Below, one piece after another: positions 19,209-50,126 of a stretch of 64,000 nt of DNA. Each line of letters begins with the position of its first letter. Position 1 is the stretch's first letter. The stretch comes from a virus. The translations under genes were made by a program, and so were the position numbers. The notes beneath the pieces were generated by a model, which ran no database searches, was not told the DNA's origin, and worked only from the letters and a program-made list of their open reading frames with translations. Location of the stretch: UHGV virus genome UHGV-1579991; one strand, written 5' to 3'.

Positions 19209-20267
19209 TTATGAACATTTTGTTAACAATGCATGACCACAATCATAAACTGCAACATAGCCAGTGTTAAGCATCTCTTGCTCATCTTGGCCGGCGTCTA
19301 CAATATGTTCTTTGCTGTTAAGTTTGACCCAGTGCTTGCAGATTGTTGACTTATCATCTGACAATTTAGGGTTAATGCAGAAGTCTGTTGAGCTTATTGT
19401 GTTGTCGAGATGCTGTTTGATGATATTGACAACTTGTTCAGGCGTCATCCAATCAAACACTGTTATGCAAGTGTAGCCATGCTTGAGGGCAAGCTGAGTT
19501 TTGTTGAAGTGATAGTCGAATGGGAGCGCATAGTTATGCTTAGACTTGCCAATTGCATATGCATAGCCATACGTAGAGTTGTGACTGATTGTTGGGCAAA
19601 TTTCAATCAGCAAATGCTTATAATGCAGGTCATATGACTGGCGTTCAATATTGACGTCATCACAGTCAAATGCAAGCCCAAGTTCTTGTAGCAGCAAAGT
19701 TTGCCATCGTTTGTTTGTAGCTGATATGACATTTTTGTGAGCATTGCGACATTTTTGATGCATACAAAAGAATGGGACACCATATTTTTGCTGCATCAAT
19801 TTAGTGTCAATGCCTGCTGCATTGCCATAACGTTCAAGCTTCGTTGCTCTAATTTTGTCAGCATCACCCCAAATGTTGCCATATCGTTTGCGCTTTGTGT
19901 CTTGAGACTTCTTAATGTTGCCACTGCGGTTGCCATAAATAAGTTCCTTTGATTGACACGCATGTTCAGCAGCATCTGGCCCATATATGTGACCGTATTT
20001 TTGAAGCTTAATTTCATTGATACGTTCTACTGGGCCATTTGGATGACCATAGCGTTCTTGTTTGATGCGTTTTGTGTGCTCAATTGTTGACTTTAATGCA
20101 AGCTTTGACGTAACGCCAAATTTGCGCAAACAGCCTATTCTAATATTGAAACTACGTTTAATATGCGATGCTTCTATTTTTGTAACAGCCAATTGCAATG
20201 CAGCATCACGTTCAGTTTCAAGCATGCAAATTTGTTCATCAATTGTCATAGCATCAAACCATTTCAT
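19209..20267 (-). CDS. repeat-rich (RYG-x-G) putative free-standing homing endonuclease or DNA-binding protein, paralog 1
   Basis: Tandem roughly 18-aa (R/K)YG repeats and a conserved C-terminal domain (LIEICPTISHNSTYGYAYAIGKSK) shared with 35445-36719 and 48935-50126. Confidence 0.7.
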   Translation of the reverse strand: MKWFDAMTIDEQICMLETERDAALQLAVTKIEASHIKRSFNIRIGCLRKFGVTSKLALKSTIEHTKRIKQERYGHPNGPVERINEIKLQKYGHIYGPDAAEHACQSKELIYGNRSGNIKKSQDTKRKRYGNIWGDADKIRATKLERYGNAAGIDTKLMQQKYGVPFFCMHQKCRNAHKNVISATNKRWQTLLLQELGLAFDCDDVNIERQSYDLHYKHLLIEICPTISHNSTYGYAYAIGKSKHNYALPFDYHFNKTQLALKHGYTCITVFDWMTPEQVVNIIKQHLDNTISSTDFCINPKLSDDKSTICKHWVKLNSKEHIVDAGQDEQEMLNTGYVAVYDCGHALLTKCS

Positions 20268-21837
20268 TCAACTTGTCAACATTCTTTTTGGCATCTGCAC
20301 TTTGTACAAATGCATAGACGTTGTCATAGACTTTGCTAATTGCTGCATCTGTATAGTCATAGAAGTTGTGTCGAGTTCTTGAAGTTCTACCACCTTTGAT
20401 GCCGAGTGATGTTTTGTCAGAATCTGATGGTTTCCAATATGTTCGCCCAAACCCAGTAGATAAAATCATACTTTCCACACCAGACCTATCTCGAGGCATA
20501 GCATGCTTCAAATGGCAAGTTACAATGAAGTCAGTTGGAAAGTCATCATAGCCAAGCTCACTTGATGCGGGTTGTATGTCGGTCTTCGTCAAGATAAGAT
20601 TGCCAATGCTTGCTATTGGTCGAAGTGGGTTTCCTAATAGCAAGTGCCATTCGCCGATGGCGTCGCCCTTCAACAAACTATTCATAACTGGAATTGCTGG
20701 CCGACCAATAGTGTTCAAGAATTTTGCGACTGCAAAGCGCTGAAATGCAAGTTTAGCAATCTGTTGCAATTTTTGTTTTGCTGCTTCTTTTCCACCACCG
20801 CTTGCATTCATAATGTTTTGGGCAATACCTTTGAAGAAGTCTGTGATTGAGTTGAATGAACCATCAAGTGCATCTTGAATAACTGCAGATTCAAGTTCAA
20901 GCGCTTTGTTCCAGAATATTGAAGGCTGACCGCCGACCCAATATCGACCCCCACCCCAAAACTTTGCATCATTGTATGTGCATTGCATCACATTGCTCAA
21001 CAAGTCAAGCATTGCTGTTTTGGGATTGATTCCATCAATTGACTTCAATGAATAAAAGAATTTGACAGTCAATTCATGCTCAAAATTCAAGCCGACATCA
21101 CGAATATGTGTTTGCGTAATTGAATCAATCGGGCCATAAACTTTGTTATGGTCATGTGTAGGGTCTATTGACAGTCGTGCTTTGCCACGCATTTGGTCTT
21201 TTGCATACACTGGGTCCATCAATTTTGCTACTCGGCCCATCCAGCCACTGATGCCATAATTGCCTCCACTGTCACCACGCATTTCGCCTTGCTCCAATGC
21301 TGCAGACAATTCTTTCCAACGCATGCCAAAACTGAAGCTCAACAAATCTTCAAGTTTGTTGTTTTCGCCATCAAACCACGTAATCATATGGGCGATTTCT
21401 GGTGTTTGCTGAACTGTTGTGTTGAAGATGTCATCTTGGCATGGCTCAGCAAATCTGCGCAATGTTATGAGTCTGTTGTTCGGGATTTGACCAAGAAATC
21501 TACAATACGCAAAGTCTTGCCAATCATATGTTGATGCGCCAATGGGGTTGTTGATGATATTTGCTGCAGTAGGCGTCAAGTATTGCAGGCCTTGCAAGTC
21601 TTGGTCAAAGTACACAGTTTTGCCATCAGGCAATTGCGGTGCTGCAAATAGATTCCATGCATTGAACAATGATTGCACACCTTGTTTTGATGCGTCTTCT
21701 GCACCACGAGGCATATCCGCATTGAGCTTCTTTTCATAAAAACCATGCTCATAATCTGTTTCTTGTGCAAATGCGCCAGTCAGAGTGCTACTATCTGCAT
21801 TGAGCTTATTGTCTTTTGGCGGAGCTATTGTAGCCAT
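20254..21837 (-). CDS. hypothetical protein, 527 aa (possibly a virion structural protein)
   Basis: Long ORF; no motif recognised. Confidence 0.7.
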   Translation of the reverse strand: MATIAPPKDNKLNADSSTLTGAFAQETDYEHGFYEKKLNADMPRGAEDASKQGVQSLFNAWNLFAAPQLPDGKTVYFDQDLQGLQYLTPTAANIINNPIGASTYDWQDFAYCRFLGQIPNNRLITLRRFAEPCQDDIFNTTVQQTPEIAHMITWFDGENNKLEDLLSFSFGMRWKELSAALEQGEMRGDSGGNYGISGWMGRVAKLMDPVYAKDQMRGKARLSIDPTHDHNKVYGPIDSITQTHIRDVGLNFEHELTVKFFYSLKSIDGINPKTAMLDLLSNVMQCTYNDAKFWGGGRYWVGGQPSIFWNKALELESAVIQDALDGSFNSITDFFKGIAQNIMNASGGGKEAAKQKLQQIAKLAFQRFAVAKFLNTIGRPAIPVMNSLLKGDAIGEWHLLLGNPLRPIASIGNLILTKTDIQPASSELGYDDFPTDFIVTCHLKHAMPRDRSGVESMILSTGFGRTYWKPSDSDKTSLGIKGGRTSRTRHNFYDYTDAAISKVYDNVYAFVQSADAKKNVDKLNEMV

Positions 21838-21890
21838 ATCTTCAAATTGTATTTAGGATATGTACCAAACAAACAAAAAGCTTGACTTAT

Positions 21891-22379
21891 TCAGTCAAGC
21901 TTTTGTTCAGAAAGTTCAATAATTTGTGTTTCGTATAGTCGTCTTAGTTCATCAAATCTTACACAGTTTTTGTCATACAGTGTAGCAAGGCCTTGCAATG
22001 CTTGTTGTTTGCTTGTCCATATGATGTCAGCAGTCAAATCCCATAGCCACTTTTGTGCATAATAGAACTTCCAGTCATGCCAAAATGTCTGTGCAGTAAT
22101 TTGTTGTTCTTTGTCATCGATGTAGATGAAGTGATGTGTTGGATTGCCACTTTCAAGGTCTACAAATCTGAATGTCTTATTTGCTACATGTTCAGCAACC
22201 CATTCATTAGATGCAATGACTTCTTGCAATGCACATTGATAATAGTAACGCTTTGCAATGTCAAAGTGTCGAACTACTACACCACGAAACAACGTCCATA
22301 GCCATGGCTCTTCTTCTGAACTTCTAATCCAATAAACTTCTTGATTTACTGGTAGAAAATTGTAGTGAACGAGGTCCAT
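21891..22379 (-). CDS. hypothetical protein, 162 aa
   Basis: ORF in the array. Confidence 0.55.
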   Translation of the reverse strand: MDLVHYNFLPVNQEVYWIRSSEEEPWLWTLFRGVVVRHFDIAKRYYYQCALQEVIASNEWVAEHVANKTFRFVDLESGNPTHHFIYIDDKEQQITAQTFWHDWKFYYAQKWLWDLTADIIWTSKQQALQGLATLYDKNCVRFDELRRLYETQIIELSEQKLD

Positions 22380-22382
22380 TGC

Positions 22383-23000
22383 TTACAAATGCACATTAAC
22401 GCTTGTAACAAGGTCGCAATCAATCAATGCTTTGAGCGTGTCAATTTCATTGTATCCGAATGCGCGTGTAGCAGCAAGCACGTGATTGACATCGACTGCA
22501 GCAGTAATGTCAACTACAACAGTCTTGTCATCTTCAAGTGGCTGCAAACGCTTGATGAGTTGATGCAGCATATCATCTGCTGGTACACTTGGCTGTTGCA
22601 CAGATTCAGCAACATAAGTGGTTTTGACTGGCTGTTGAGCAGGATACGTGGGCACAGGTGACACGGGTTCAATGGGTCGTTCTGTTTGCGGTGCTACAAT
22701 TGGCTGAGTTGGCAAAATGGTCTCTGACACAGTGCTGCCATCTGCTGCAGTTGTAGATACACTTGGAATCACTATTGGTTGAGAAAACACGTCATCTTGA
22801 GGGCGATTCCAAGTTTCAATTTCAGACAATGCATAAAGACGATTTTGACTGTCCCATGCCTTGTCAGCTTCTTCGTCAATTGCAACAATTGTCCGAATTT
22901 CTGCCGTTGCTGGTCTATCGCCATTTTCAAGCTGTTCAATGACTCTGATAGGCGCTATTGATGTTCGTGCCATATTTGGATGGTTTTTTATATTGTACAA
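22383..23000 (-). CDS. hypothetical protein with Pro-rich linker, about 200 aa
   Basis: ORF; true start may be the internal MARTS methionine. Confidence 0.55.
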   Translation of the reverse strand: MYNIKNHPNMARTSIAPIRVIEQLENGDRPATAEIRTIVAIDEEADKAWDSQNRLYALSEIETWNRPQDDVFSQPIVIPSVSTTAADGSTVSETILPTQPIVAPQTERPIEPVSPVPTYPAQQPVKTTYVAESVQQPSVPADDMLHQLIKRLQPLEDDKTVVVDITAAVDVNHVLAATRAFGYNEIDTLKALIDCDLVTSVNVHL

Positions 23001-23098
23001 CGCAAAGCATGCTTTTGCATCTGTGCATGCTATTTTATGCTAAGTACCCTGTGTAAAATAGTGAAATGCTTATTTTACGCAGGGTGCATCAAGTTAAA

Positions 23099-35444: not shown

Positions 35445-36719
35445 TTATATATTTGACAGCTGTTTGCGTTGCAAAATTGCATGACCGCAGTCATATACTG
35501 CAACATAACCTGCATCAATCATCTCTTGCTCATTTTGTCCGCAGTCTTCAATATGTTCTTTTGTCTTTAAATGACACCAGTGTTTGCGAATTGTTGACTT
35601 GTCATCTGACAGTTGCGGATTAAGTGCGAAGTTAGTTGAGTCTACTGGTTCACCTGCAAGATGCTTTCGAATGACATCAATGACTTCATTGTCATCCATC
35701 CATTCGAATATTGTAATGCAAGTGTAGCCAAGCTTAAGAGCAAGCTGAGTTTTGTCGAAGTGATAGAATTTGCTAACATGCTTATTGTGTGTAGTACGGC
35801 CAATTAAATATGCAAAACCATATGTTGAATTGTGTGACCAAGTTGGATTGATTTCAATCAATAATTTGCAATGTTCATTACTGTAATTGAGGTCATATGA
35901 CCATCGCTCAAGATTGACATCATCAAGCCCACAATCAATCCCAAGTTCTTGCAGCAATTTGTCATGCCACCAATGGTTTGCTCGTGATTTTACATGACCT
36001 TGAGCATCACGACATTTAGCAGTCATACAAAAATATGGGACACCATAGCGTTGCATGTTAGTTGACGCAATTTTTTGCAAATCGCCTGCAGCAGACCCAT
36101 ATTTTTGTCGTTTTGTTGCAACTGCTACTGCAATATTGCCAAATTTGTTGCCATATCGTTTCTGTTTAGTTTCAAGTGCTTTGTCAATATTTATGATGCC
36201 TCTTGTACCATGTTCTTTTTCACGTTTAGCTAAAATTGTTTGCATGTCGCCAAGTTTGTTGCCATATCGTTGCAATTTAGTTTCATGCATTTTTGCAATA
36301 TTTGTCCAACTATCACCATAATGTTGTCTATGTGTTGCAGCGCAACGTGCTTTGTCACCAAACATGTGTCCAAACTTTGCTAAACGACGCTCAACAAATT
36401 TTTGCATGTCACCCATGCCATTACCATATCGTTTCTGCTTAGTTGCAACAGCCTTTTGCATATTGACACCTCGATAGCCATAACGCATTTCTATTGTTGT
36501 AGTAATTTTATCACTGATGACTTTTGATTGCTGAGCATACTCAAAACCATATTTACGCAAGCAGCCAATTCGCTTATTATATTTCAAACGAATTTTACCA
36601 TGTGATGTCTTCTTTGGGCCATACCATTCATATGGCGTTTCTGCAATCAATTTATCACGTTCAGCTTCAAGTTCTTTTATTCGAGCTTCAAGAGCTTCAC
36701 CTATTAATTGTGTTGCCAT
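35445..36719 (-). CDS. repeat-rich (RYG-x-G) putative homing endonuclease or DNA-binding protein, paralog 2, 424 aa
   Basis: Same repeat architecture and C-terminal domain (LIEINPTWSHNSTYGFAYLIGR) as the gene at 19209-20267. Confidence 0.7.
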   Translation of the reverse strand: MATQLIGEALEARIKELEAERDKLIAETPYEWYGPKKTSHGKIRLKYNKRIGCLRKYGFEYAQQSKVISDKITTTIEMRYGYRGVNMQKAVATKQKRYGNGMGDMQKFVERRLAKFGHMFGDKARCAATHRQHYGDSWTNIAKMHETKLQRYGNKLGDMQTILAKREKEHGTRGIINIDKALETKQKRYGNKFGNIAVAVATKRQKYGSAAGDLQKIASTNMQRYGVPYFCMTAKCRDAQGHVKSRANHWWHDKLLQELGIDCGLDDVNLERWSYDLNYSNEHCKLLIEINPTWSHNSTYGFAYLIGRTTHNKHVSKFYHFDKTQLALKLGYTCITIFEWMDDNEVIDVIRKHLAGEPVDSTNFALNPQLSDDKSTIRKHWCHLKTKEHIEDCGQNEQEMIDAGYVAVYDCGHAILQRKQLSNI

Positions 36720-36728
36720 TATAAAATA

Positions 36729-36757
36729 TTGAGATATTCAATATATGTACATATAAT
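36729..36757 (+). promoter_or_regulatory. sigma70-like promoter candidate TTGAGA-N17-TATAAT upstream of terL
   Basis: Hexamers with 17-nt spacer; -10 element ends about 21 nt before ATG 36779; a 7-bp inverted repeat (atattga-N5-tcaatat) overlaps the -35 element. Confidence 0.45.
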
Positions 36758-36778
36758 ACGAATATTCAAATTAAACAT

Positions 36779-38770
36779 ATGTCTGAAGTTAAGCATCAAG
36801 TATATGACCCTGTAGCACAATTCAAATCTGCAGAAGAAAAGGAAGCTGCAAGAGTCGTGTGGTGTTCAGAAAGTGTGCGTCGTGCATATGCAGCAGTTGA
36901 CCAAGGCCTGCCATTACGGTCGAATCCCTGGTTCTTTGGCAATATTGCATTGCGTAAGCCAGGACTATTGTATAGATACTCTGACGTAGAGCTACGTGAA
37001 TGGCTTAGATGTGCTTATGATATACTGTACTTTGCCAACACATACGCTACACTCATGACACCTGCAGGTGTGCGAATGCATATTACGTTGCGACCATATC
37101 AGAAAAAAATGCTTCGTGCGTATCAAAAGCAAAAGTACATTATAAGTTTGTGTGGACGACAAATAGGCAAAACTACGACTGCTGCAATTTTCCTCGCTTG
37201 GGCTGTCATTTTCAATCGTGAGCTCAACATAGCAGTACTTGGCGACCGCTTGGCTACATCAAGTGAAAACCTGAACAAAACAAAAGACATCATAAACAAT
37301 CTGCCATTCTTTATGAAGCCTGGTGTGTTTGTTTGGAATGGTGGAATGGTCGCATTTGACAATGGCTGCAAAATTATCACAGGTACTGCTCAAAAGTCAT
37401 CACTTGTCGGTAAAACAATTCACATCTTGTATCTTGATGAGCTCGCAATTCCGCCTGCTCAGCAATCAAAGACTCTTGTAGACTATGCATTGCCCACAAT
37501 TGCATCATTGCCAACTGGCAAAGTTATCGTAACATCTACGCCATCTGGTGATAATGTGTTCAAGACTTTGTGGCTTGGTGCAATTAACAAAACAAATGGA
37601 TTCTTTCCAATTCAAGTAAACTGGTGGGACATTCCAGGTCGTGATGAAAAGTGGAAAGCTGAACAAATTGCAATTCTTGGTGAAGATGCTTTCAATGAGC
37701 AATACAACTGCGTGTTCTTGTCAGGTGCAACGTCAATTTTCAATTCAAGAGCAATTGATGATATTGCAAGACGACAACAAAAGTATGAATTTGTTGCTGA
37801 TGAGCGTCTTGAATCGCTGCTCAGATTTTTCATTGCTGATTCAGATGTTGGCACTGAACCTGAGCCGCATTCATTTATGACTTGGCGTGCAGATATTGAC
37901 CCAGCGACACTCAAAAATGAAACATGTATCATCAACATCGACATCGCTGAAGGCTTATCTGGCGACTTTTCTGTCATACATGTGCATCGTATAGTTGACA
38001 TTGCAAAAGATGCTGAACTTGAACTTGATGCAAGCAATCTGTATGATATGTTTGACGATGACAAAAAATCATTGTTTGCAAAAGCAGTTGAAATGCAACG
38101 TCAAATGTCGGCAACACAAGCTCAAGATGATGACGATGATGACGATGACGACTGGTTTGGCGCAGACGATGATGTTGCTCAAGGAGTCGATGCATATCAA
38201 GATTATGCGAATGCTGCAGTAGAAGAGATTGGCTTGTGGCGCTCAAATGTGACGTCAATTAAAGTCATGGCTCTGTATTTGCAGTTCTTAATGACATATG
38301 TGTTTGACGCAAACAAAACAAAGATTATCTATGAACGCAACAAATATGGTGGAGAGTTTCGTTCATATTGTTTGTCTGAACGTGCACGCAATATTGCAAT
38401 TGATGAAGAGAGCTTCGTAAGCTTCCAACGAACTCTTGGTTCAGAACAACTTGCACCAGGCTGTTCAATTACGCCTGGCACCAAACCAGTGTACGTAAGA
38501 CAGCTCAAAGACCTTATTGAAACTGGCAAGATTCTTGAAAACAATGCAGATACGCAAAGAGAGCTTACATACTTTGGCGGTGTCAAAGGCAAGAATGGTC
38601 ATGTGTCATATCAGGCATCACCAGGCTTCCATGATGACATTGCAATGACTCTTGTATCTCTTGCAGCATTTATGGACACTCGATGCAACGATTGGCTTGA
38701 ACTGCTTGATGTGTTCTACAATGGCAGCAGTCAAACAAGTTCTGATGATGACGATGATGACTGGATTTGA
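36779..38770 (+). CDS. terL: terminase large subunit, 663 aa, with unusual poly-Asp insertions
   Basis: Walker A GRQIGKTT and Walker B ILYLDE in the N-terminal ATPase domain; acidic runs QAQDDDDDDDDDWFGADDD and C-terminal SSDDDDDDWI. Confidence 0.9.
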   Translation: MSEVKHQVYDPVAQFKSAEEKEAARVVWCSESVRRAYAAVDQGLPLRSNPWFFGNIALRKPGLLYRYSDVELREWLRCAYDILYFANTYATLMTPAGVRMHITLRPYQKKMLRAYQKQKYIISLCGRQIGKTTTAAIFLAWAVIFNRELNIAVLGDRLATSSENLNKTKDIINNLPFFMKPGVFVWNGGMVAFDNGCKIITGTAQKSSLVGKTIHILYLDELAIPPAQQSKTLVDYALPTIASLPTGKVIVTSTPSGDNVFKTLWLGAINKTNGFFPIQVNWWDIPGRDEKWKAEQIAILGEDAFNEQYNCVFLSGATSIFNSRAIDDIARRQQKYEFVADERLESLLRFFIADSDVGTEPEPHSFMTWRADIDPATLKNETCIINIDIAEGLSGDFSVIHVHRIVDIAKDAELELDASNLYDMFDDDKKSLFAKAVEMQRQMSATQAQDDDDDDDDDWFGADDDVAQGVDAYQDYANAAVEEIGLWRSNVTSIKVMALYLQFLMTYVFDANKTKIIYERNKYGGEFRSYCLSERARNIAIDEESFVSFQRTLGSEQLAPGCSITPGTKPVYVRQLKDLIETGKILENNADTQRELTYFGGVKGKNGHVSYQASPGFHDDIAMTLVSLAAFMDTRCNDWLELLDVFYNGSSQTSSDDDDDDWI

Positions 38771-38838: not shown

Positions 38839-39342
38839 TCATCGTTTTCGATGGAAGACTTTGAATTTGTATCGTAACGTTCTGTCATTATCTGTGCATG
38901 TGTATAGTGCAGACTCAGATTTTTTAGTCCACATTCGCCAATTGACTGCAGGAAATCGAACGTCGCCCTCAACATAATTGTCAATCATCGTCAAGTACAT
39001 TCTGTCTGCATAAATCATTGCTTCTTCAAACAACTTAGAACCGCCGATGATAAACATGTTAGACGCAAATGCAGACTTGCAATATGCTATTGCATTGGCT
39101 AGCGTGCTAAATACGAAATAGTCGCTTGTTGGCTGCAATGTAGAGCTTATAACAATGTTAATTCTGTCAGGCAAGGGTTTGCAATTCATCGACTCAAAAG
39201 TCTTACGACCCATGATGACAATGTGATTCTTTGTGAGTTTCTTGAAGTGCTGCAAGTCATATGGAATATGCCAGGGCAAATCACCATTGCGACCTATGAC
39301 ATTGTTATTTGATACTGCTGCTATGATATTGATGTATTGCAT
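38839..39342 (-). CDS. folA: dihydrofolate reductase, 167 aa
   Basis: IAAVSNNNVIGRNGDLPWHIPYDL, VIMGRKTFES and IIGGSKLFEE motifs typical of DHFR. Confidence 0.85.
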   Translation of the reverse strand: MQYINIIAAVSNNNVIGRNGDLPWHIPYDLQHFKKLTKNHIVIMGRKTFESMNCKPLPDRINIVISSTLQPTSDYFVFSTLANAIAYCKSAFASNMFIIGGSKLFEEAMIYADRMYLTMIDNYVEGDVRFPAVNWRMWTKKSESALYTCTDNDRTLRYKFKVFHRKR

Positions 39343-39357: not shown

Positions 39358-39669
39358 TTATAATGAGTCAGACACTACAGATGCATATTGCAAGACCTGT
39401 TTGCGAATATCACTGCCAATCAGTCGTTCATATTGCAGACGCAGTTCTGTAACTGTCATATTATCTGGCAGCTCTTTGACTTTGATAAAGATGCCTGCAG
39501 TGTCACCTTTAGCAATATAGCCTGTTTTCTCGCACATGTTACGCAAACAGTCAATATATGAATGTCGCTCAGATTTGACTGCACATAGCATTTGCTGCCT
39601 GCTAAATGACTCACCTACTGCAATGCTTGCAATGAATGACTTAAATGCATGCCAACGTGTCATTGTCAT
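39358..39669 (-). CDS. hypothetical protein, 103 aa
   Basis: ORF in the array. Confidence 0.5.
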   Translation of the reverse strand: MTMTRWHAFKSFIASIAVGESFSRQQMLCAVKSERHSYIDCLRNMCEKTGYIAKGDTAGIFIKVKELPDNMTVTELRLQYERLIGSDIRKQVLQYASVVSDSL

Positions 39670-40124
39670 TACAGATTTGATTTGTATGTTTCACAGCGTT
39701 TCCAATCTGTTGCAGCTTTCAGACCCTTCAAGTATTCTACATACATTGGATGTTCCCATGCAGGGTCATCAGTTACAGCAACATAGCCTTTGCTATGCTT
39801 GTCTTTGTCAATAAGCATCTCTGCATATTTTGGCGCAAGCAGTCGTTTGTTTGCAGCCCAAGCAAAATGACATTTGATAAAGTGTCGCGTAATTCTTGTG
39901 TATGCCGCTTTGACAGACTTTAGCATATCAGGGTCTGCAATAACATCTGCCAAATTCTGTGGCGCTGCTGCAATGAAAACTGCTTCGCAGTCTTTATGCT
40001 TTGCAGCTATTTGCTGCAATAAGTCTTTATGTGAATTGAGATGCAGAATTGTCGAACAAATGACTACAATGTCTGTTGCAGGTTCAATTCGTTTTGCTTG
40101 TTCTTTAAGAGATGGTTGTTCCAT
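39669..40124 (-). CDS. hypothetical protein, 151 aa
   Basis: ORF in the array. Confidence 0.55.
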   Translation of the reverse strand: MEQPSLKEQAKRIEPATDIVVICSTILHLNSHKDLLQQIAAKHKDCEAVFIAAAPQNLADVIADPDMLKSVKAAYTRITRHFIKCHFAWAANKRLLAPKYAEMLIDKDKHSKGYVAVTDDPAWEHPMYVEYLKGLKAATDWKRCETYKSNL

Positions 40125-41972: not shown

Positions 41973-43877
41973 CTACAAAGATTTGAACAATTCCTCGTAT
42001 GTTACAATTTTCTTGCCTTTTGCAAGTGCTGCTTTCATTTTGTTCGACAGCTTGTTGACATCATTTGTGACAACATAGTCACATGCATCAATGTTTGCAC
42101 CGACATCTTCAAGCTTACCATTTGCTGCATCAATAAATGCACCTTTTGTTGCCCAAGTAGGCTTAGGCGAGCCTGTCATGACAACCTTGATTGTGTTAGC
42201 ATGCGCAGATGCTTCTTTATGCATTTCATTGAACATCACGAAGCATTGTGGAAAGCGCTTGAGTAATCTTTGTATGACATTCAACTTTATGAGCCTGTCA
42301 ATTGGCTCCATGCTCAAGCCCTTAAAGTCATACTGGCAATTGCTAAAGTACGCAGACAACTGATATGCAGCTTTACCACCGAGACCAGGAATCTGCATGC
42401 ATTCAATGAAATGCGACAAGTGAATGCTACTGAAGCGTTCACGTAAGCCTGCAATGACTGTACGGTCATTTTTGCTGTTTGTGTCAAACTGCAGCAGCTC
42501 AAACAGTCGTTCATTGTCAACTTCTTGCACAATGCAGAACAAGTCTTCAATTGTGGGCGCATCAGAGAATGTCAACATGACATCAAGATTGTCTTGTGCA
42601 ATAAGCAATGCTTCACAAATTTTCGTAGCATAAACCCAGCCAAGCCCATCAATATTAAGCTTGCAAACGCCTTTGATAAACCTCGTGCATCTTGCAAATT
42701 CCTCAGGCATCATCAAGTGAATGCCATCGACATATGCATGTACAGGAATGTCAGCTTTGCTGCTATCACCAGGTTCAATACATTCTTGAATGTCTGGAAT
42801 AATGTCACCGCCCTTTTCAATACGAACAAGAGCGCCTGGCCAAATACCATTTGCATGCAAAAAGCCATAGTGAAATGCTGAAGCTGCTTTTACTGTAGTG
42901 CCATCAAGCTCAACAGGCTCAAGTTCAACTCTCGGAAAAAGCTCACCATTGATTCGCTGACGCCAATCAATTCGAGTCACTCGAGTTACAGCAGACATTG
43001 CGTCAAGCTTCAATGCAACCATGTTTGCATATTCTGCTGCATTTGCAAACTGCTGCTCAATCCACAAGTCATCTGCAAAAGGCTTGACTACAATGCCATC
43101 AATGCGATATTTGAATTCTGAACGCCCATTGGCAATTTTTGTGCAAGTTTCTGCAAACTCATTGTAATCAGTGACTTCAAAGACTTCTGCAATGAATTCT
43201 GCAGGCCAGCCAACTTTAGCAAGAGCATCTGCAGGATTGGTTTGCTCATATGTTTTGCCATCAAGTGTGTCAGTCAGCATGTATGCCATAGGGTCAATGT
43301 CTTCCATGCCACACATGTCTAATGACTTCACAAATGCTGCAGCAGTATTGCGCTCATTTTTGTATTTGACAGAGCCATCAGCATTGAAATGATATTTTTG
43401 TGCAAAAATGTCTTTTGCAATGACAGCCTCAAAGCGAATTTGATATGGCTGTTCTGCTGCAGCAAGCTGCATCGGCACTTTGCCTGCTACAACAAATTTG
43501 CGCGTGACATCATAGCCCGTATAGCCATCACCACGAGTAACAACTTTTAGCAATCTGCCATCAGTGTCGTAATGTGCTTCACAGCCCATGCCATCATACT
43601 TGTGCATAAGCAGCATTTCATGACCAACAATGTTGCACACAGTATCATGCAACGCAGTTGTAAACTGTGACTTTGTATGAATTGCAGCAAGACTCAATGC
43701 AGGTGTAAGATGCTTAACTTCTTGTTTATTTGACTCTTCAAAGCGAATCTTATGTTTAATGTCGCTATTTGCAAGAAGCTGCTGTTCAAGAGCATCAAAT
43801 GCCTCATCAGACATTATCGGATTGCCTGCATAATACGCAGCTATTGCGTCATGGTACATATTGAGTGTATCAGTCAT
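41973..43877 (-). CDS. ligA: NAD-dependent DNA ligase-like protein, 634 aa
   Basis: N-terminal Ia-like segment (AYYAGNPIMSDEAFDALEQQL) and adenylation motif KYDG with downstream TRGDG; motif-level call. Confidence 0.65.
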   Translation of the reverse strand: MTDTLNMYHDAIAAYYAGNPIMSDEAFDALEQQLLANSDIKHKIRFEESNKQEVKHLTPALSLAAIHTKSQFTTALHDTVCNIVGHEMLLMHKYDGMGCEAHYDTDGRLLKVVTRGDGYTGYDVTRKFVVAGKVPMQLAAAEQPYQIRFEAVIAKDIFAQKYHFNADGSVKYKNERNTAAAFVKSLDMCGMEDIDPMAYMLTDTLDGKTYEQTNPADALAKVGWPAEFIAEVFEVTDYNEFAETCTKIANGRSEFKYRIDGIVVKPFADDLWIEQQFANAAEYANMVALKLDAMSAVTRVTRIDWRQRINGELFPRVELEPVELDGTTVKAASAFHYGFLHANGIWPGALVRIEKGGDIIPDIQECIEPGDSSKADIPVHAYVDGIHLMMPEEFARCTRFIKGVCKLNIDGLGWVYATKICEALLIAQDNLDVMLTFSDAPTIEDLFCIVQEVDNERLFELLQFDTNSKNDRTVIAGLRERFSSIHLSHFIECMQIPGLGGKAAYQLSAYFSNCQYDFKGLSMEPIDRLIKLNVIQRLLKRFPQCFVMFNEMHKEASAHANTIKVVMTGSPKPTWATKGAFIDAANGKLEDVGANIDACDYVVTNDVNKLSNKMKAALAKGKKIVTYEELFKSL

Positions 43878-44608: not shown

Positions 44609-45118
44609 CTACGATGGCTTTTTGTCATCAAATTTGAAAATGACTGGCATTGCAGAATCAGGCTTTATGTCGCCTTTGTTAACTGCGTCATTTAAGCATT
44701 CTACAATCTTTTTGCCAAGGTCTTTTACTTCTGCAGGAATTTTCTCGTATGGCACATTTGATGACAGTTGAAGCTCATTTTGCTGATGCTCGTTTTGTTG
44801 AAGCTCTGCTGTTTCAGATAGCTGCTTGTCAATTCGAGTAAACATCAATTCATCACGTGCATCAATAAATTCTTGAATTGCTTGCAGCTGCTCAATGCTG
44901 CATATGACAACACATTGCAATAAGTTTGATGCATCATAGAATGACATGCCAATAATTCGTGTAGTGTCACAATCGAATGCGCAATTGATGTCTTTCAATG
45001 TGTCCATAAATGACATTGATAAGTCTTCAATGCCTGATACATCTGCAATGCTGAACACAAATTGTGTGCTGCCAACGCATTCATGCTCATCTGAAAATAT
45101 GAGCTTATCTACTGTCAT
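44609..45118 (-). CDS. hypothetical protein, 169 aa
   Basis: ORF in the array. Confidence 0.55.
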   Translation of the reverse strand: MTVDKLIFSDEHECVGSTQFVFSIADVSGIEDLSMSFMDTLKDINCAFDCDTTRIIGMSFYDASNLLQCVVICSIEQLQAIQEFIDARDELMFTRIDKQLSETAELQQNEHQQNELQLSSNVPYEKIPAEVKDLGKKIVECLNDAVNKGDIKPDSAMPVIFKFDDKKPS

Positions 45119-45330
45119 TTCGTAGTTGCTTTTGTGATGATGCCCTTTGCAAGCATCTTTTTGTATGTGTCATAGCCGATAATGTCAATTGTTGTGTCGT
45201 TTACTCGCCGAACAATCAACTCTGCTTTATCTGCAGCAGACATGATGTTATCTGCAGCTTCTTTGTTTGCAGTGATAGCAGACCATTTACCATTACCGAG
45301 CTTAGTTATGTTTGCTTTGATTGATGTCAT
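45115..45330 (-). CDS. hypothetical small protein, 71 aa
   Basis: ORF with 4-nt overlap to the downstream gene. Confidence 0.45.
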   Translation of the reverse strand: MTSIKANITKLGNGKWSAITANKEAADNIMSAADKAELIVRRVNDTTIDIIGYDTYKKMLAKGIITKATTK

Positions 45331-45335
45331 TGTTG

Positions 45336-46679
45336 TCAGAATTGAAACATGTTATTGATAAATGCGTCGCCAAACTGCGCATCTGCAGCTTTTGACGTTG
45401 TGTCATACGTTGCTGCATTGATGCCAAGTGCAGTTATTGTTGATTGCGCATCTACAAGTTCATACACTTTGCAGCTCGGCTTTGTAATGTCTGTAAACGA
45501 CATTGTGTACATGAAGTTTTCAAAGATATGTCTTGGTACTTCACGTGCATTCAAACATGCAAGTTGTCTATTTTCTGCAAATCGCGCCTTGAGCCATTCA
45601 AAGTCATCTGCAGGTACTGAGTCAACATTCATGAATGTCTTATATGCTGCAGTCAAAAACATTGCAATGACTTCGTCATCATACAAATCTTCACCAAGCA
45701 TATATCGCATGCCAGGTTCCAACTGTTTTGCATTGTTAGTTTCAATACCAAGAGACTTCAATGCATCGTAGATTTGGCCTACAGATAAATGCGACCAATT
45801 GTTGCCACGTTTCTTGAGCTTGCCAAACAATTCTGGGATGTTGTCACCAGCATCACCAAGCACAATCTTGTAAAACAAGAAACTTGGCACATGTTCATGA
45901 ATCTCAGCATCAACATACTCAAGCAATGCTGCATATGGGTTGTCAAGAATACGTGTTTTAACTTGAGCACCAGCAAAGCTGTCGAAGATGCTGCCGCCGA
46001 CATTCTGCGACTTTTCACCAGCAAGTTCTTTGATGTGTTCAAGCACAAACTTGTCGCCCATCAGTACTCGAGACTTCTGCCACCCATTTGCTTTGCAGCC
46101 ATTTTTGATGATTGCATATGCTGAACATGCGCCAGTGTTTGTGTTGACACATACACATTGAGTCAAGTCTTTATCAGTGCCTTGATACAGCACATTGCGG
46201 CCTTTTGATGTTGCATATCTACTAAGCATGAAGATGACATCATCAGCCTCTGCTTCAGAAAGCTTGATGTGACGAATGCCATGTACTTCTTGCATCAACT
46301 TAAGCCATTCAAAATATACACCATAAACTTTGAGCCAGTTGATTGTCTGGTCATACGTTCGAGTGCCTTTGTAACCAGCATCTTCACCTTGTTCAAAGCC
46401 TTCTCTTGTCAAATATTGATGCTTTGAGCGCCACAAATTCGACTTTTTGTCATCGACAGCAATAATGACATCATCAACGACATCTTCAAGTCTACGAAGC
46501 TCATTACAAAGGTCGAGCGTTAACTTGGATATCAAAGACAGTCTTGATGCATTCTCATTCTTTTCGAATGACAAGTCTGTACCTGATTTTGCTAATACTG
46601 GCACTCTGCTCTTAACCCACCAGCTCCCGTCAATTACGTAAATGAACTTGTGATTATGAGTATTGTCAAGCTTTGTCAT
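45336..46679 (-). CDS. 5'-3' exonuclease / flap endonuclease (FEN, RNase H-like), 447 aa
   Basis: FIYVIDGSWW, SEAEADDVIFML and GDAGDNIP motifs matching the 5'-3' exonuclease family. Confidence 0.8.
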   Translation of the reverse strand: MTKLDNTHNHKFIYVIDGSWWVKSRVPVLAKSGTDLSFEKNENASRLSLISKLTLDLCNELRRLEDVVDDVIIAVDDKKSNLWRSKHQYLTREGFEQGEDAGYKGTRTYDQTINWLKVYGVYFEWLKLMQEVHGIRHIKLSEAEADDVIFMLSRYATSKGRNVLYQGTDKDLTQCVCVNTNTGACSAYAIIKNGCKANGWQKSRVLMGDKFVLEHIKELAGEKSQNVGGSIFDSFAGAQVKTRILDNPYAALLEYVDAEIHEHVPSFLFYKIVLGDAGDNIPELFGKLKKRGNNWSHLSVGQIYDALKSLGIETNNAKQLEPGMRYMLGEDLYDDEVIAMFLTAAYKTFMNVDSVPADDFEWLKARFAENRQLACLNAREVPRHIFENFMYTMSFTDITKPSCKVYELVDAQSTITALGINAATYDTTSKAADAQFGDAFINNMFQF

Positions 46680-46927
46680 TGTCTGAATGCTTTTGCAATT
46701 GCTGATGTTGAGAGCATTGGCACACTACCATTTTTGAAGCGAGGCTTTTTGTTTGACAACGACCACTTTTGCTTATGCCACTTTGAACAGCTTGTGCCAC
46801 GATTTGTTACATCTGCGCCGGACCTTGAGCACTTGAGTCGGAAATCTTGTGCAGATGTGCCATGCTTCTTTATTGAATGTTGACAATTATAACAGCATTT
46901 ATCGTGTCGTTCTACTGGATATCTCAT
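46676..46927 (-). CDS. small Cys/His-rich protein, about 83 aa; start trimmed
   Basis: Internal ATG of track ORF 46676-47035, placed just after the upstream gene's stop; HDKCCYNCQH motif. Confidence 0.4.
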   Translation of the reverse strand: MRYPVERHDKCCYNCQHSIKKHGTSAQDFRLKCSRSGADVTNRGTSCSKWHKQKWSLSNKKPRFKNGSVPMLSTSAIAKAFRQ

Positions 46928-46928
46928 G

Positions 46929-47396
46929 TCATTCAATGATAAGTGTATGACCAACTTCTTTCGCAAATGATACAATGCAGCCAAACAATTGCGGGTCGCA
47001 CCAAGGTTTGATGAACTGCTGCCACCAGTGAACATCAGATGACACCATCATTTCTTTGACAAGGTCTTCCTTTTCCCTGTCAAGATATGCAATATCACCC
47101 AACGCAAACATTGACTTCAAGATATTATCATCACTCATGTCAAACTTGCCAAGCCCTTGTTCGTCAACTTTTCGTGCAACTTTGATTGCATCGGGCAGCT
47201 TACATGCGCCATTTGCGCACAAACATGCTGCAAGAATTACAAATGCAGGCTTCTTATCCTGTGCAAGTCTGTATGCCCAATTGCGTGTAGCAGGAAAGTT
47301 TGGCACTCTGATGTCTACACCTTGAGGCAGATTGGATTCTTTAACTGCTTTAAGCTTGGCATCACTGCCAACCATGCCCATCTTTATTTGTGTCAT
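46929..47396 (-). CDS. hypothetical protein, 155 aa
   Basis: ORF in the array. Confidence 0.55.
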   Translation of the reverse strand: MTQIKMGMVGSDAKLKAVKESNLPQGVDIRVPNFPATRNWAYRLAQDKKPAFVILAACLCANGACKLPDAIKVARKVDEQGLGKFDMSDDNILKSMFALGDIAYLDREKEDLVKEMMVSSDVHWWQQFIKPWCDPQLFGCIVSFAKEVGHTLIIE

Positions 47397-47523
47397 ATAT
47401 CAATCTTGGTCAAGAAATTGTTCTTCGTCATTTGGTTGTTTCTTTGTCGACTCATCGACATTGTCTGCATCAAGCCACTTGTCATCTTGCTCGACTGTTC
47501 CAGTATCTGGTGTGTTCATATTG

Positions 47524-47919
47524 TTATCGGTTCTTTGAAAATGAAACTTGCGTTGATTGCTGTGGTCGAACATCAACAAACACTGAATCTACTGCGTCAA
47601 ACTTAAGCGTAGCAAGTGAATCAATTGTTTGCCTTGCTTTTTGCAAATTGCGTGCTTTGATGCCTGATACTGTTGCAGATTTTTCAAGCAGATATGCATC
47701 ACGAGGCGTCCAGTAGCGAGCCTGCCAACGCATATGCATAGAGTCGACAACCAAATTTTCTGCTGCAGCATCAATAATTGCTGCAGTTGATTGCTGAGTT
47801 GCATCAAGTCGTTGCTGCAATACTGCTAATTGCTTTGTGTGCTGCTGTTGATGTTTGAATACTATGCTGATTGCTCCAAATAAGAGAAACCATGCAATAA
47901 AACGCAAAAATGACTTCAT
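47524..47919 (-). CDS. hypothetical membrane-anchored protein, 131 aa
   Basis: N-terminal hydrophobic segment FIAWFLLFGAISIVF. Confidence 0.5.
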   Translation of the reverse strand: MKSFLRFIAWFLLFGAISIVFKHQQQHTKQLAVLQQRLDATQQSTAAIIDAAAENLVVDSMHMRWQARYWTPRDAYLLEKSATVSGIKARNLQKARQTIDSLATLKFDAVDSVFVDVRPQQSTQVSFSKNR

Positions 47920-48890
47920 GATTGCTGCACGAATTTTGAGAGCTCGAATGACAATGCGAGCATTGTTATGAATTGGTCAATTGACTGTTTAGACTCTACA
48001 CTGTATTTGTGAGCTGCAATGACAATGTCTCCAAGTCGTGCAACAAAACCAGGCGTATTCTTTGAGAGCTTTGCATAGCACCAATTTGCAAAGTCAGTTG
48101 AGAGAGCATTGATGACTTCAGTTTCACGACCTTTGTATTGTGACAATGTTTTGTAAAATTCACGCGGGTCTTTGCATGCGACAATGAAGTCATACAGTTC
48201 TTCAAACTTTGCTGACATGCCCTTTGTGACATGCTCAAGCGTTATATGACGCTCACCTTGATTGAAGACAAAGTAGCAAATGTTCAGAATTTTGCGGAAG
48301 TCTGGATAGTTATCTTGAATTAGCTTGATGAGCGCTTCTTTTTCAATGGTGCATTCATTTTCCTTCAAGATATTGTAGACGCGAACCATGCACTTCTTCA
48401 TCAACTGTTCTGCAATATCATCAGAAAAGTCGAATGACAGCATTTTGAGACGAGATTGAGCAATTGATGCATCAATACGGTCTGGATAATTGCAAGTTGC
48501 AATGAAAAACGCAATGCCTGCAAACTCTTCAATGGTGCCTCGCAAAGCCATCTGGCTTTGTGTCGATAGATAATCCATTTCATCAAGCAGCACAACCTTT
48601 ACGCCACTTGACGACAATGACATATGCTGACAGAATTCTGAAATTGTGTTGCGAACTGTGTCAATGCCAGAATTCTTTGAGCAGTTGATTTGCAGAATTG
48701 AACGTCTATCAGTCCACTTCAATGCCAATGCTCTTGCTGCGGTTGTTTTTCCACTTCCTGGTGCTCCTGCGAACAAATAATTTTGCGGCTGACCATTAAA
48801 TGCCGCAGCATAATCATCAGGCACAATTAACTCTTCGACTTTTGTTGGCCTGTAGCGTTCTAACCAAGTTCTATCTTTAAGGGATGCCAT
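47916..48890 (-). CDS. clamp loader subunit (RFC / gp44-like AAA+ ATPase), about 324 aa; start trimmed
   Basis: WLERYRPTKVEEL ... LFAGAPGSGKTT (Walker A) ... LLDEMDYL (Walker B); start moved to ATG 48890 (MASLKD). Confidence 0.75.
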   Translation of the reverse strand: MASLKDRTWLERYRPTKVEELIVPDDYAAAFNGQPQNYLFAGAPGSGKTTAARALALKWTDRRSILQINCSKNSGIDTVRNTISEFCQHMSLSSSGVKVVLLDEMDYLSTQSQMALRGTIEEFAGIAFFIATCNYPDRIDASIAQSRLKMLSFDFSDDIAEQLMKKCMVRVYNILKENECTIEKEALIKLIQDNYPDFRKILNICYFVFNQGERHITLEHVTKGMSAKFEELYDFIVACKDPREFYKTLSQYKGRETEVINALSTDFANWCYAKLSKNTPGFVARLGDIVIAAHKYSVESKQSIDQFITMLALSFELSKFVQQS

Positions 48891-48934
48891 TTGTTGTTTG
48901 TTGATATATGTAAAAATATTGTACAACAATACTG

Positions 48935-50126
48935 TCATTTTTGCACAGCATGGCCGCAATCGTACACAGGCACATAACCAGCGTCAAGCATTTGTTGTTC
49001 ATCTACTTCTGCAGTATGCGCAGCATACAGTCGCTTCTTGTAATTCCACCAATGTTTTCTAATAGTCAATTTGTCATTGCATATGACAGGATTTTTTGAC
49101 AAGTCTGTGCTATCTACACGTTCATTGCATAAATGCTGTCGTATGATTTCTACAACGTCATCAGGGTTATCCCAATCCCATATTGTAATGCATATGTAGC
49201 CTGCTGTAAGTGCTGCTTGAGTTTTTCTAAAATGTCTATCATTAGGAATTGGCAAATTGCGTTTAGATTTGCCAATTGCATATGCAAAGCCAAATGCAGC
49301 ATTATGTGAAAACGATGGGTTGATTTCTATTAGTAGATGCTTATAATGCAAATCATAAGAAAATCTGCCAATATTGACATCATCAAATGTGCAATCAATG
49401 TTAAGTCGTTGCAGCAAAAAATCATGCCACCAACGATTAACCGTTGTAATGGTGCGCCCATTAGCATGCCGACAACGCTCAGTCATAACAAACCAAGGTA
49501 CACCATAGCGTTCAAGATTTGTTTGCATGCGTTTTGCAGTGCCACCATATTCATCACCGTATCGTAATCTGCGTGTATGAACTGCTTTTAATGGGTTGCC
49601 AGCAGAATTGCCATATCGTAGCATCTTTGTTTGCTGCGCTTTAGCAGTAATTACACCATGGTCAGGATAGTGTTCGCGTATTGTTTGCTGCACTTTAGTA
49701 GCATTCCATGTGCGATAGCCGTACTTGTGTAATTTTGTTTGCTGGGCTTTTTGCATGTTGTTATAATATGGGTCGCCATAGCGTTCTTCTTTAATTTTGC
49801 ACATTAACTGTTGGTCGCCAAATGCATTGCCATATTTTGCAAGTTTTGTTGCCTTAAATTTAGTCATGTCGCCAAGCCCATTGCCATATCTTTCTCGTTT
49901 TGTTGCGACACCTTTGTTTGTAAATTCTTTTTAATTGCGCAGTGTTTTCAACACCATATTTACGCAAATTGCTTATACGACTGTTATATGTACGTTTGCA
50001 AATTGTGTATTGTGAGTAGCGTTTATGCTGAGGTCGTTCTTTAGACGCAGTTTGCAATATCACATCTCTTTCCTCTTCAAGTTCTTTTATGCGAGCTTCA
50101 AGAGCTTCTCCAGTTAATGGTTCCAT
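48935..50126 (-). pseudogene. repeat-rich (RYG-x-G) homing-endonuclease-like gene, paralog 3, split by a frameshift
   Basis: Two overlapping ORFs (49860-50126 and 48935-49867); homology to paralog 2 continues across a T5 run at about 49928-49932 only if one base is removed. Confidence 0.6.

What the first reader, a model, noticed from the sequence alone, without database searches (positions are those of the whole stretch)
19209..50126. Family of three repeat-rich homing-endonuclease-like genes inserted next to core genes
Genes at 19209-20267, 35445-36719 and 48935-50126 share an N-terminal coiled-coil-like segment (EALEARIKELE), 6-8 tandem roughly 18-aa (R/K)YG-x3-G repeats and a conserved C-terminal domain (SYDL..LLIEINP.SHN..G.AY). 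They sit beside the sigma factor, terL and the clamp loader, the typical placement of free-standing homing endonucleases. I cannot assign the catalytic family by eye.
Basis: partly seen in the sequence, partly recalled or inferred. Interest (0 to 1): 0.5.

Follow-up and report, generated by a model that had tools for sequence, protein, structure and literature searches.

The report
Mobile Vsr-type homing endonuclease gene family
Three related genes in this large gut phage encode selfish DNA-cutting enzymes of the known Hef/Vsr-like homing endonuclease kind, in a trimmed-down form, and closely related phages show them being gained, lost, swapped and broken next to essential genes.

Summary
Three minus-strand paralogs (41-47% aa identity) lie beside the sigma factor, terL and the clamp loader. 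Each has an N-terminal helix, 7-10 tandem 18-aa KxxxTKxxRYGNxxG repeats (weak Pfam DUF7487) and a conserved C-terminal domain.

Relatives with 92-97% identical flanks show turnover at every site:
- Gene 1 is cleanly absent in one relative.
- Genes 2 and 3 are replaced by alleles only 35-46% identical, with sharp boundaries.
- One copy is frameshifted and one is interrupted.
- Alleles at one site are polyphyletic.

The terL 5' segment next to gene 2 exists as three ~70%-identical haplotypes ending at the Walker A codons.

Verdict: a real, mobile homing-endonuclease family and a new architectural variant of a known kind. Cleavage activity and target sites are untested. Interest is moderate.

The parts
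19209..20267 (-). Gene 1 (352 aa): intact family member between a 527-aa gene (20254-21837, 14-nt overlap) and the sigma factor gene. About 7 repeats (aa 39-169) and a Vsr-like core around D213/E222/H229/N230/H253.
   Evidence: 97% identical ortholog in L012 and absent in L013; dN/dS 0.14-0.21
19229..20251 (.). Presence/absence segment at the sigma site. In relative IMGVR_UViG_3300045988_149023 these 1023 nt are replaced by 10 nt (TCTACATGTG). The first 16 nt and last 18 nt of the gene 1 ORF remain.
35445..36719 (-). Gene 2 (424 aa): intact family member transcribed divergently from terL. Helix aa 7-27, 10 repeats (aa about 46-232, nt about 36024-36584), Vsr-like core aa about 245-355 (nt about 35655-35987, D276/E289/H296/N297/H320), and a small C-terminal beta subdomain aa about 375-412.
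48935..49867 (-). Gene 3, downstream ORF (310 aa from the first ATG): repeats plus the Vsr-like core. The reading frame continues upstream to the frameshift.
49860..50126 (-). Gene 3, N-terminal fragment (88 aa) ending in a premature stop after the frameshift.
49928..49932 (-). A5 homopolymer run (A4 in the intact 396-aa orthologs): the 1-nt insertion that splits gene 3.
36696..37192 (+). Hypervariable tract next to gene 2: the intergenic region plus the first ~414 nt of terL (to 37192), ending just after the Walker A (GRQIGKT) codons. At least three haplotypes ~70% identical exist among genomes whose remaining terL is 94-97% identical. Candidate co-conversion or target region.
18209..19105 (-). 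Sigma-70-type factor gene, the conserved neighbour downstream of gene 1.
36779..38770 (+). terL (T4-type large terminase), the conserved neighbour of gene 2.
47916..48890 (-). Clamp-loader (gp44-like AAA+) gene, the conserved neighbour downstream of gene 3. The likely ATG start is at 48890.

Best explanation
These are free-standing homing endonuclease genes of the Vsr-like (EDxHD/Hef-type) lineage, in a reduced architecture.

Proposed mechanism:
1. The array of 18-aa helical DUF7487 repeats lays the protein along DNA and selects a long target.
2. The N-terminal helix and/or the nuclease core mediates dimerisation.
3. The Vsr-like core uses the invariant Asp, Glu, His-Asn and second His to cut a site in or near the adjacent essential gene of a co-infecting relative that lacks that allele.
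4. Recombinational repair from the endonuclease-carrying genome copies the gene and some flanking DNA.

Over time this gives invasion, replacement by other family members, decay and loss at a handful of fixed intergenic sites.

Shown here: the homology, the fold, conservation of putative catalytic residues, purifying selection, the presence/absence and allele-replacement polymorphisms, pseudogenisation, and a mosaic flank in terL.

Inferred: DNA binding by the repeats, cleavage activity, target location and the homing event itself.
For: Fold and homology:
- Viral structure hits are 'endonuclease-like' and 'putative homing endonuclease' proteins.
- Gene 2 is homologous to long metagenomic relatives (P0031, E 3e-47). 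These match CP220/IBB_35 'homing endonuclease/Hef' genes in 402 phage records and phrog_3339.
- The core profile aligns to CP220 gp054 at 93.5% hhalign probability.
- PMC3239194 places Hef-type endonucleases in the Vsr-like family. PMC2988022 reports that U5 Hef cleaves nrdB.

Functional constraint:
- D276, H296, N297 and H320 are invariant and E289 nearly so, in an alignment with 24% mean column identity.
- dN/dS is 0.14-0.23.

Mobility:
- Gene 1 is cleanly absent in one relative.
- Sites 2 and 3 hold alleles 35-46% identical inside flanks that are 96-100% identical, with sharp edges.
- Three different alleles occur at a fourth site.
- Alleles at one site are polyphyletic; gene 2 nests among helicase-site alleles.
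- Gene 3 is frameshifted, and the gene 2 ortholog is interrupted in one relative.
- The terL 5' tract is mosaic and ends at the Walker A codons.
- There is no intron or intein context.
Against: - No cleavage or homing data exist for this subfamily.
- Direct sequence matches to known families are weak: phrog_3339 E 1e-5 for gene 2 only, DUF7487 just below the cutoff, no PDB sequence hit, and no phage-database tblastn hit at E<=1e-5.
- The residue two positions before the catalytic Asp is Glu in CP220 and P0039 but Ser/Thr/other in this family. No equivalent of I-Bth0305I D222 was identified.
- Gene 1 has Cys where most members have Asn291.
- Three of the four sites are always occupied in the relatives examined. 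A naive empty target is seen only at site 1, and that allele may be a deletion derivative.
- terL 5' haplotypes are not strictly linked to the endonuclease allele.
Confidence: 0.75

Rival explanations
1. Conflict nucleases rather than homing elements. They would derive from the REase-Mom fusion proteins of large phages, which are proposed to act like single-chain restriction-modification modules. The nuclease would attack host or superinfecting phage DNA, and the rapid allele turnover would reflect diversifying selection in phage-phage or phage-host arms races, not self-propagation.
For: The long relatives carry a Pfam Mom domain next to the nuclease core. Iyer et al. (PMC7824862) predict such fusions to be restriction components protected by momylation. 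Three of the four sites are always occupied, as expected for useful genes. dN/dS is well below 1.
Against: The Mom core is deleted in all window copies, and no Mom-like sequence exists elsewhere in the window, so there is no cognate self-protection. Clean absence, a frameshift and an interruption in close relatives indicate dispensability. Placement beside core genes and the mosaic terL flank fit homing better. The characterised family member Hef behaves as a homing endonuclease.
Confidence: 0.13
2. Domesticated or catalytically dead DNA-binding proteins, for example regulators of the neighbouring sigma, terL and clamp-loader genes. They would keep the repeat array and a nuclease-like fold but no longer cut DNA.
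For: Departures from the EDxHD-type residues: Ser instead of Glu before the Asp, Asn/Cys/Ser at the Asn291 position, and no clear second Asp. The positions are fixed next to regulatory or essential genes.
Against: A regulator would not be freely absent, frameshifted or swapped for a 35%-identical allele between 95%-identical genomes. The invariant Asp, His-Asn and His pattern points to a maintained active site.
Confidence: 0.05
3. The apparent allele swapping is an assembly artefact. Paralogous, repeat-rich genes in mixed metagenomic populations could be mis-joined, creating false mosaics, truncations and frameshifts.
For: All data come from metagenome assemblies. One disruption coincides with contig ends. 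The frameshift lies in a homopolymer run.
Against: The same alleles recur at the same sites in independent samples and assemblers (IMG/VR, ENA, Logan) with intact ORFs. Boundaries are identical in two relatives. The frameshifted fragments are seen in other contigs.
Confidence: 0.04

Closest known systems
Hef and Hef-like free-standing homing endonucleases (phage U5 Hef; Campylobacter phage CP220 gp054 and IBB_35 'Hef'; Dickeya phage LIMEstone F-LimIII/VII/VIII/X; phrog_3339)
   Same: Free-standing genes next to core genes of large myoviruses, often in several copies per genome. They have N-terminal KxxTxxxRYG-type DUF7487 repeats followed by a Vsr-like core (YDL / LxIE...H / YH..KT / G..hhhhF), with homology traceable through intermediates.
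   Different: The window proteins lack the ~110-aa Mom/GNAT-like core inserted after the nuclease domain. They have EINP..SHN instead of EYDG..FHS, Ser instead of Glu before the catalytic Asp, an N-terminal amphipathic helix instead of zinc ribbons, and only marginal direct HMM scores.
I-Bth0305I, the EDxHD family prototype (PDB 3R3P)
   Different: I-Bth0305I is intron-encoded in recA and uses two NUMOD/HTH motifs. Here the genes are free-standing, no NUMOD was detected, and binding presumably relies on 7-10 DUF7487 repeats. The D222 equivalent is unclear.
Vsr very-short-patch repair endonuclease (PDB 1CW0)
   Different: There is no significant sequence similarity, no dcm-type methyltransferase partner, added repeat arrays, and phage-mobile behaviour.
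T4 seg and mob free-standing homing endonuclease genes
   Same: Same behaviour: intergenic insertion beside essential genes, sporadic distribution, replacement of one endonuclease gene by another at the same locus, cleavage sites hundreds of bp away in conserved coding sequence, and co-conversion of flanks.
   Different: Unrelated catalytic folds (GIY-YIG, HNH).
REase-Mom fusion proteins of jumbo phages (Iyer et al. 2021, PMC7824862)
   Same: The long relatives of this family have exactly this architecture.
   Different: The window proteins have lost the Mom core, so they cannot be modification enzymes.

Membership tests
Free-standing homing endonuclease gene (functional class) | Encodes a DNA endonuclease domain | tested here: met
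   Vsr-like nuclease fold. The putative catalytic Asp and His residues are invariant. Activity itself was not assayed.
Free-standing homing endonuclease gene (functional class) | Lies between genes, not inside an intron or intein | tested here: met
   The ORF map shows intergenic placement. No group I or II intron was found by Rfam.
Free-standing homing endonuclease gene (functional class) | Sporadic presence among close relatives, with conserved flanks | tested here: met
   Gene 1 is absent in contig 149023 and present in 152288 and SRR8316648. Other sites carry non-orthologous alleles with sharp boundaries.
Free-standing homing endonuclease gene (functional class) | Cleaves the endonuclease-less allele and is copied into it by gene conversion | not testable with these tools
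   Needs biochemistry and phage crosses.
Free-standing homing endonuclease gene (functional class) | Co-conversion or mosaic tracts in flanking conserved genes | tested here: inconclusive
   The terL 5' 420 nt occurs in three ~70%-identical haplotypes ending at the Walker A codons. The haplotype is not strictly linked to the endonuclease allele. No such tract is seen at sites 1 and 3.
EDxHD / Vsr-like homing endonucleases | Vsr-like variant of the PD-(D/E)xK fold | tested here: met
EDxHD / Vsr-like homing endonucleases | Conserved E, D, H, D active-site residues | tested here: inconclusive
   Asp (D276) and His (H296) are conserved, and Asn291 matches I-Bth0305I N208 by spacing. The Glu two residues before the Asp (present in CP220 and P0039) is Ser/Thr/other here. 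No counterpart of D222 was identified; the invariant H320 is a candidate. The mapping is by sequence spacing and hhalign to CP220, not by superposition.
EDxHD / Vsr-like homing endonucleases | NUMOD-type N-terminal DNA-binding motifs (as in I-Bth0305I) | tested here: not met
   No NUMOD hit appears in the Pfam scan at E<=1. DUF7487 repeats are found instead.
Hef-like family (phrog_3339 architecture) | DUF7487 repeat array | tested here: met
   PF24308 scores 26.6 bits for gene 2 (cutoff 27) and weaker for genes 1 and 3. PF24308.2 is precomputed for P0001, which is gene 2. The same repeat type occurs in CP220 gp054. The 18-aa periodicity is shown.
Hef-like family (phrog_3339 architecture) | Significant match to the family HMM | tested here: inconclusive
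   Gene 2 scores E 1.1e-5 and genes 1 and 3 get no hit. The link is transitive through P0031, P0039 and P0044 and hhalign at 93.5%.
Hef-like family (phrog_3339 architecture) | Mom/GNAT-like domain after the nuclease core | tested here: not met
   The alignment shows about 110 residues (ARKC...LGF) missing from all short-form members. No Mom-like sequence exists in the window.
REase-Mom restriction-modification-like fusions | Functional Mom acyltransferase domain providing self-protection | tested here: not met
Vsr mismatch-repair endonuclease | Sequence membership and association with a Dcm-type methyltransferase | tested here: not met
   hhalign versus E. coli Vsr gives probability 0.4%. The neighbours are the sigma factor, terL and the clamp loader.

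The most novel reading that the evidence does not exclude
The 18-aa DUF7487 units could be a modular DNA-reading array. Conserved K2, T6, K7, R10, Y11 and G12 would form the scaffold, and the variable positions 3, 4, 8, 14, 15 and 18 would act as specificity determinants. Repeat number (2-13 strict copies) and composition would then retarget a minimal Mom-less Vsr-type nuclease.

In this reading, whole 'specificity plus nuclease' cassettes shuttle between four or more fixed loci by recombination through the conserved first ~20 codons and the terminal YDCGHA codons. That would amount to a self-diversifying homing-endonuclease system, and a naturally compact scaffold for programmable nucleases.
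Probability: 0.1. Interest if true: 0.75.

Novelty: new variant of a known kind. Interest (0 to 1): 0.42.

Why it matters
Hef-like endonucleases are abundant in large phages: about 3,800 clusters at 50% identity match the core profile, and 402 phage records match a long relative (P0031) by tblastn. Yet they are almost unstudied, and the roles of their DUF7487 repeats and Mom-like domain are unknown.

This lineage is a natural Mom-less minimal version, so it offers a direct test of what the Mom domain contributes.

The set of near-identical genomes gives concrete substrates for cleavage and homing assays: one empty site, several swapped alleles, one frameshifted copy, one interrupted copy, and a terL segment with three deep haplotypes ending at the Walker A codons.

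It is also a clear example of nuclease genes marking the boundaries of genetic exchange in uncultivated gut phages.

Tried and rejected
- Megablast and tblastn of the terL region and gene 2 against 50,697 phage records found nothing.
- phmmer of gene 2 and a core-domain profile against PDB sequences gave only chance hits or none.
- NCBIfam gave no hit for gene 2.
- hhalign of the core profile against E. coli Vsr was not significant, so the Vsr link rests on fold alone.
- Pfam gave no NUMOD, HNH, GIY-YIG or LAGLIDADG hits. The weak 'HNH endonuclease' label of phrog_559 is a naming artefact of a family that also matches Hef-like proteins.
- A literature search for DUF7487 returned no papers. The Sandegren 2005 Hef paper is not held, so Hef's properties are cited from reviews.
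- An intron-encoded origin was considered and rejected.
- A programmed frameshift in gene 3 was considered but judged unlikely. The intact A4 form predominates among the cluster members read: ten 396-aa entries against the frameshifted P0177. Nothing suggests a functional two-frame product, though this is not excluded.
- The empty site-1 allele was examined for target-site duplication or clear direct repeats. Only weak microhomology was seen, so insertion and deletion cannot be told apart.
Full report

Genes 1 and 2 are intact minus-strand ORFs: 19209-20267 (352 aa) and 35445-36719 (424 aa).

The third interval is not one gene. It holds an 88-aa ORF (49860-50126) and a 310-aa ORF (48935-49867) in different frames. 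Alignment with an intact 396-aa ortholog (P0011, locus L018) shows a single extra A in an A5 run at 49928-49932. The two fragments also occur in other assemblies, so the frameshift is probably a real allele. With the frameshift corrected, dN/dS against P0011 is 0.135, so it is recent.

The three products are 41-47% identical, with tblastn E-values of 1e-75 to 1e-109. No other copy lies in the window. A fourth paralog, P0015, lies elsewhere on the same 181,037-bp metagenomic contig.

Repeats follow a strict 18-aa period, with 7, 10 and about 9 units in genes 1, 2 and 3. Over 196 units from the family the consensus is xKxx(A/Q)TKxxRYGNxxGNx. Positions 3, 4, 8, 14, 15 and 18 are variable.

The genome is a large myovirus of about 180 kb with a baseplate wedge protein, a tape-measure-like protein, an NAD ligase and a tRNA cluster.

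**2. What the protein is**

Direct searches are nearly blind:
- Pfam gives only sub-threshold DUF7487 hits over the repeats.
- PHROGs gives phrog_3339 'homing endonuclease' at E 1e-5, for gene 2 only.
- PDB sequences and NCBIfam give nothing.
- No phage record matches by tblastn at E<=1e-5.

The 5.8-billion-protein search found only 39 relatives, all from metagenomes.

RAP domains, which are also Vsr-like, follow. Matches among viral structures are 'endonuclease-like', 'putative homing endonuclease' and DUF7487 proteins.

The family's distant members (P0031, P0033, P0039) carry about 110-130 extra residues after the nuclease core. These longer proteins match:
- Campylobacter phage CP220/IBB_35 'homing endonuclease/Hef' and 402 phage records in all
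- phrog_3339, at E 1e-46 to 1e-124
- in CP220 gp054, Pfam DUF7487 plus Pfam Mom (PF25680, above threshold)

A profile of the window-type core aligns to CP220 gp054 with 93.5% hhalign probability. It pairs YDL with ELD, LLIEINPTWSHN with LAIEYDGLFFHS, and YHFDKTQ...GYTCITIF with YHLKKTE...GIQLFHIF. An exhaustive HMM search finds about 3,790 clusters at 50% identity, and most are the long form.

The I-Bth0305I paper places 'Hef type' phage endonucleases in the Vsr-like EDxHD family. The T4 mobile-element review reports that U5 Hef cleaves nrdB.

The window genes are therefore a diverged, shortened branch of the Hef-like, Vsr-type homing endonucleases. They keep the DUF7487 array and the nuclease core. 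They have lost the Mom/GNAT-like core, retaining only its flanking strands (HW...VYDCGHA). They carry a coiled-coil-like helix at the N-terminus. No Mom-like sequence exists elsewhere in the window.

**3. Is it functional?**

Across 32 members with 24% mean column identity, D276, P292, H296, N297, H320 and W340 (gene 2 numbering) are invariant, and E289 is nearly so.

By spacing, D276, N291 and H296 correspond to I-Bth0305I D196, N208 and H213, which are Vsr D51, H64 and H69. Two points are uncertain:
- The Glu two residues before the Asp in CP220 and P0039 is Ser or another residue here.
- No counterpart of D222/D97 could be assigned; H320 is a candidate.

dN/dS between orthologs is 0.14-0.23, against 0.05-0.08 for the sigma factor. 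The proteins are under purifying but somewhat relaxed selection.

**4. Evidence for mobility**

Two IMG/VR genomes (152288 and 149023) and several ENA and Logan contigs share 92-97% nucleotide identity with the window.

Site 1 (sigma factor):
- Gene 1 is present in 152288 (97% aa) and in SRR8316648 (P0022, 424 aa; 86% aa identity over the aligned 340 residues).
- In 149023, window 19229-20251 is replaced by 10 nt. Only the first 16 nt of the ORF, which overlap the upstream gene's stop, and the last 18 nt remain.

Site 3 (clamp loader):
- Flanks are 96-100% identical up to the ORF edges.
- Inside the ORF, identity drops to 48-70%. The relatives carry intact 343-aa and 455-aa alleles that are 46% and 39% identical to gene 3.
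- The first ~20 codons and the last few codons are shared.

Site 2 (terL):
- 152288 carries a 431-aa allele only 35% identical to gene 2.
- 149023 carries a gene 2 ortholog split after KRYGNKFG by about 1.34 kb of foreign DNA with a 327-aa ORF. The split coincides with contig ends, so this needs caution.
- P0014, P0016 and P0020 are further divergent alleles confirmed at this site.

Site 4 (upstream of a DEAD helicase, outside the window):
- Three different alleles occur in three genomes.

Other evidence:
- In a neighbour-joining tree, alleles from one site are polyphyletic. Gene 2, at the terL site, nests among helicase-site alleles at 59-61% identity, while other terL-site alleles are only 35-40% identical to it.
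- More distant phages hold family members beside a gp23-like capsid gene, with three copies there, and beside a large protein with a faint prohead-protease-family (Peptidase_S77) hit.

Together these show gain or loss, replacement, decay and movement between sites, which is the life cycle expected of selfish endonuclease genes.

**5. A flank signature**

Next to gene 2, the segment from about 36696 to 37192 comprises the intergenic region plus the first ~414 nt of terL. It is only 65-80% identical between the window and 152288 or 149023, while the rest of terL is 94-100% identical. Of the 37 amino-acid differences in terL, 35 fall in residues 1-137. The boundary lies immediately after the Walker A codons (GRQIGKT).

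Across six genomes the segment forms three haplotypes about 70% identical to each other, against a background of 94-97%.

Free-standing phage endonucleases typically cut conserved, functionally critical coding sequence hundreds of bp from their own gene, and they co-convert the intervening DNA. This tract is therefore a candidate target and co-conversion region. The haplotype is not strictly linked to the endonuclease allele, so I treat this as suggestive only.

**6. Rival readings**

Iyer et al. interpret REase-Mom fusions of jumbo phages as restriction-modification-like conflict modules. That could apply to the long relatives. The window proteins lack the Mom core and are dispensable in close relatives, so a pure conflict role is less likely, though it is not excluded (0.13).

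A catalytically dead regulator (0.05) and assembly artefacts (0.04) are disfavoured. The putative active-site residues are conserved, and the same alleles recur in independent assemblies.

**7. Comparison, novelty and verdict**

In function and ancestry these are Hef-like, Vsr-type free-standing homing endonucleases, which is a known kind. They differ in architecture:
- no Mom-like core
- an N-terminal helix instead of zinc ribbons
- EINP..SHN in place of EYDG..FHS
- sequence divergence large enough that standard annotation misses them

I rate them a new variant of a known kind.

Interest is moderate (0.42). A specialist would not be surprised by homing endonuclease genes in a large phage. However, the Mom-less minimal form, the well-resolved turnover at four loci, and the terL mosaic ending at Walker A make concrete experiments possible.

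The most novel reading not excluded is that the DUF7487 units are a modular, exchangeable DNA-reading array on a compact nuclease (probability about 0.1).

Noticed in passing
window 36696-37192 (terL 5' end and upstream intergenic): The first ~420 nt of terL occur as at least three haplotypes ~70% identical among six genomes whose remaining terL is 94-97% identical. The boundary sits right after the Walker A codons.
   Followed up: yes
L004 1-1220 plus L024 1-119 (IMGVR_UViG_3300045988_149023, contig ends), equivalent to window ~36140: The gene 2 ortholog is split after ...KRYGNKFG by about 1.34 kb of unrelated DNA carrying a 327-aa ORF on the opposite strand, with GNG(K/R)F-type repeats and a hydrophobic N-terminus. 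It coincides with the ends of a circularly permuted contig, so it could be an assembly artefact.
   Followed up: partly
window 61343-62524 (minus strand): A cluster of seven tRNA genes (Gly, Thr, Glu, Ser, Leu, Pro, Gln). ARAGORN also calls a permuted tmRNA at 60909-61351 that Rfam does not support and that overlaps an ORF, so it is probably a false positive.
   Followed up: partly
window 39400-39700: A second short block of low identity (74-77%) to relative 152288 within otherwise 95-100% identical DNA. It covers small ORFs 39358-39669 and 39669-40124. The cause is unknown.
   Followed up: no
L020 5001-11131 (ENA ERZ987522 gut metagenome contig, a distant phage): Three family members flank a gp23-like major capsid gene: a 612-aa copy upstream with a triplicated N-terminal helix module, and 340-aa and 356-aa copies downstream.
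   Followed up: partly
L001/L002 (same genome lineage, outside the window): Genes for dCMP deaminase, an exostosin-like glycosyltransferase, thioredoxin and a papain-like peptidase lie near the fourth endonuclease site. They hint at possible DNA modification in this phage, which could bear on self-protection from its own nucleases.
   Followed up: no
window 38839-39342 and 41973-43877: By synteny with L026-L028, the 167-aa ORF after terL is a dihydrofolate reductase. ORF 41973-43877 is an NAD-dependent DNA ligase (phrog_3869, E 3e-82).
   Followed up: partly
Hef-like proteins in general (CP220 gp054, L017 1234-2958): Annotated Hef-like 'homing endonucleases' contain a Pfam Mom (GNAT-fold DNA-modifying) domain after the Vsr-like core. 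Its role in a homing endonuclease is unexplained, and the literature interprets it in two incompatible ways.
   Followed up: partly
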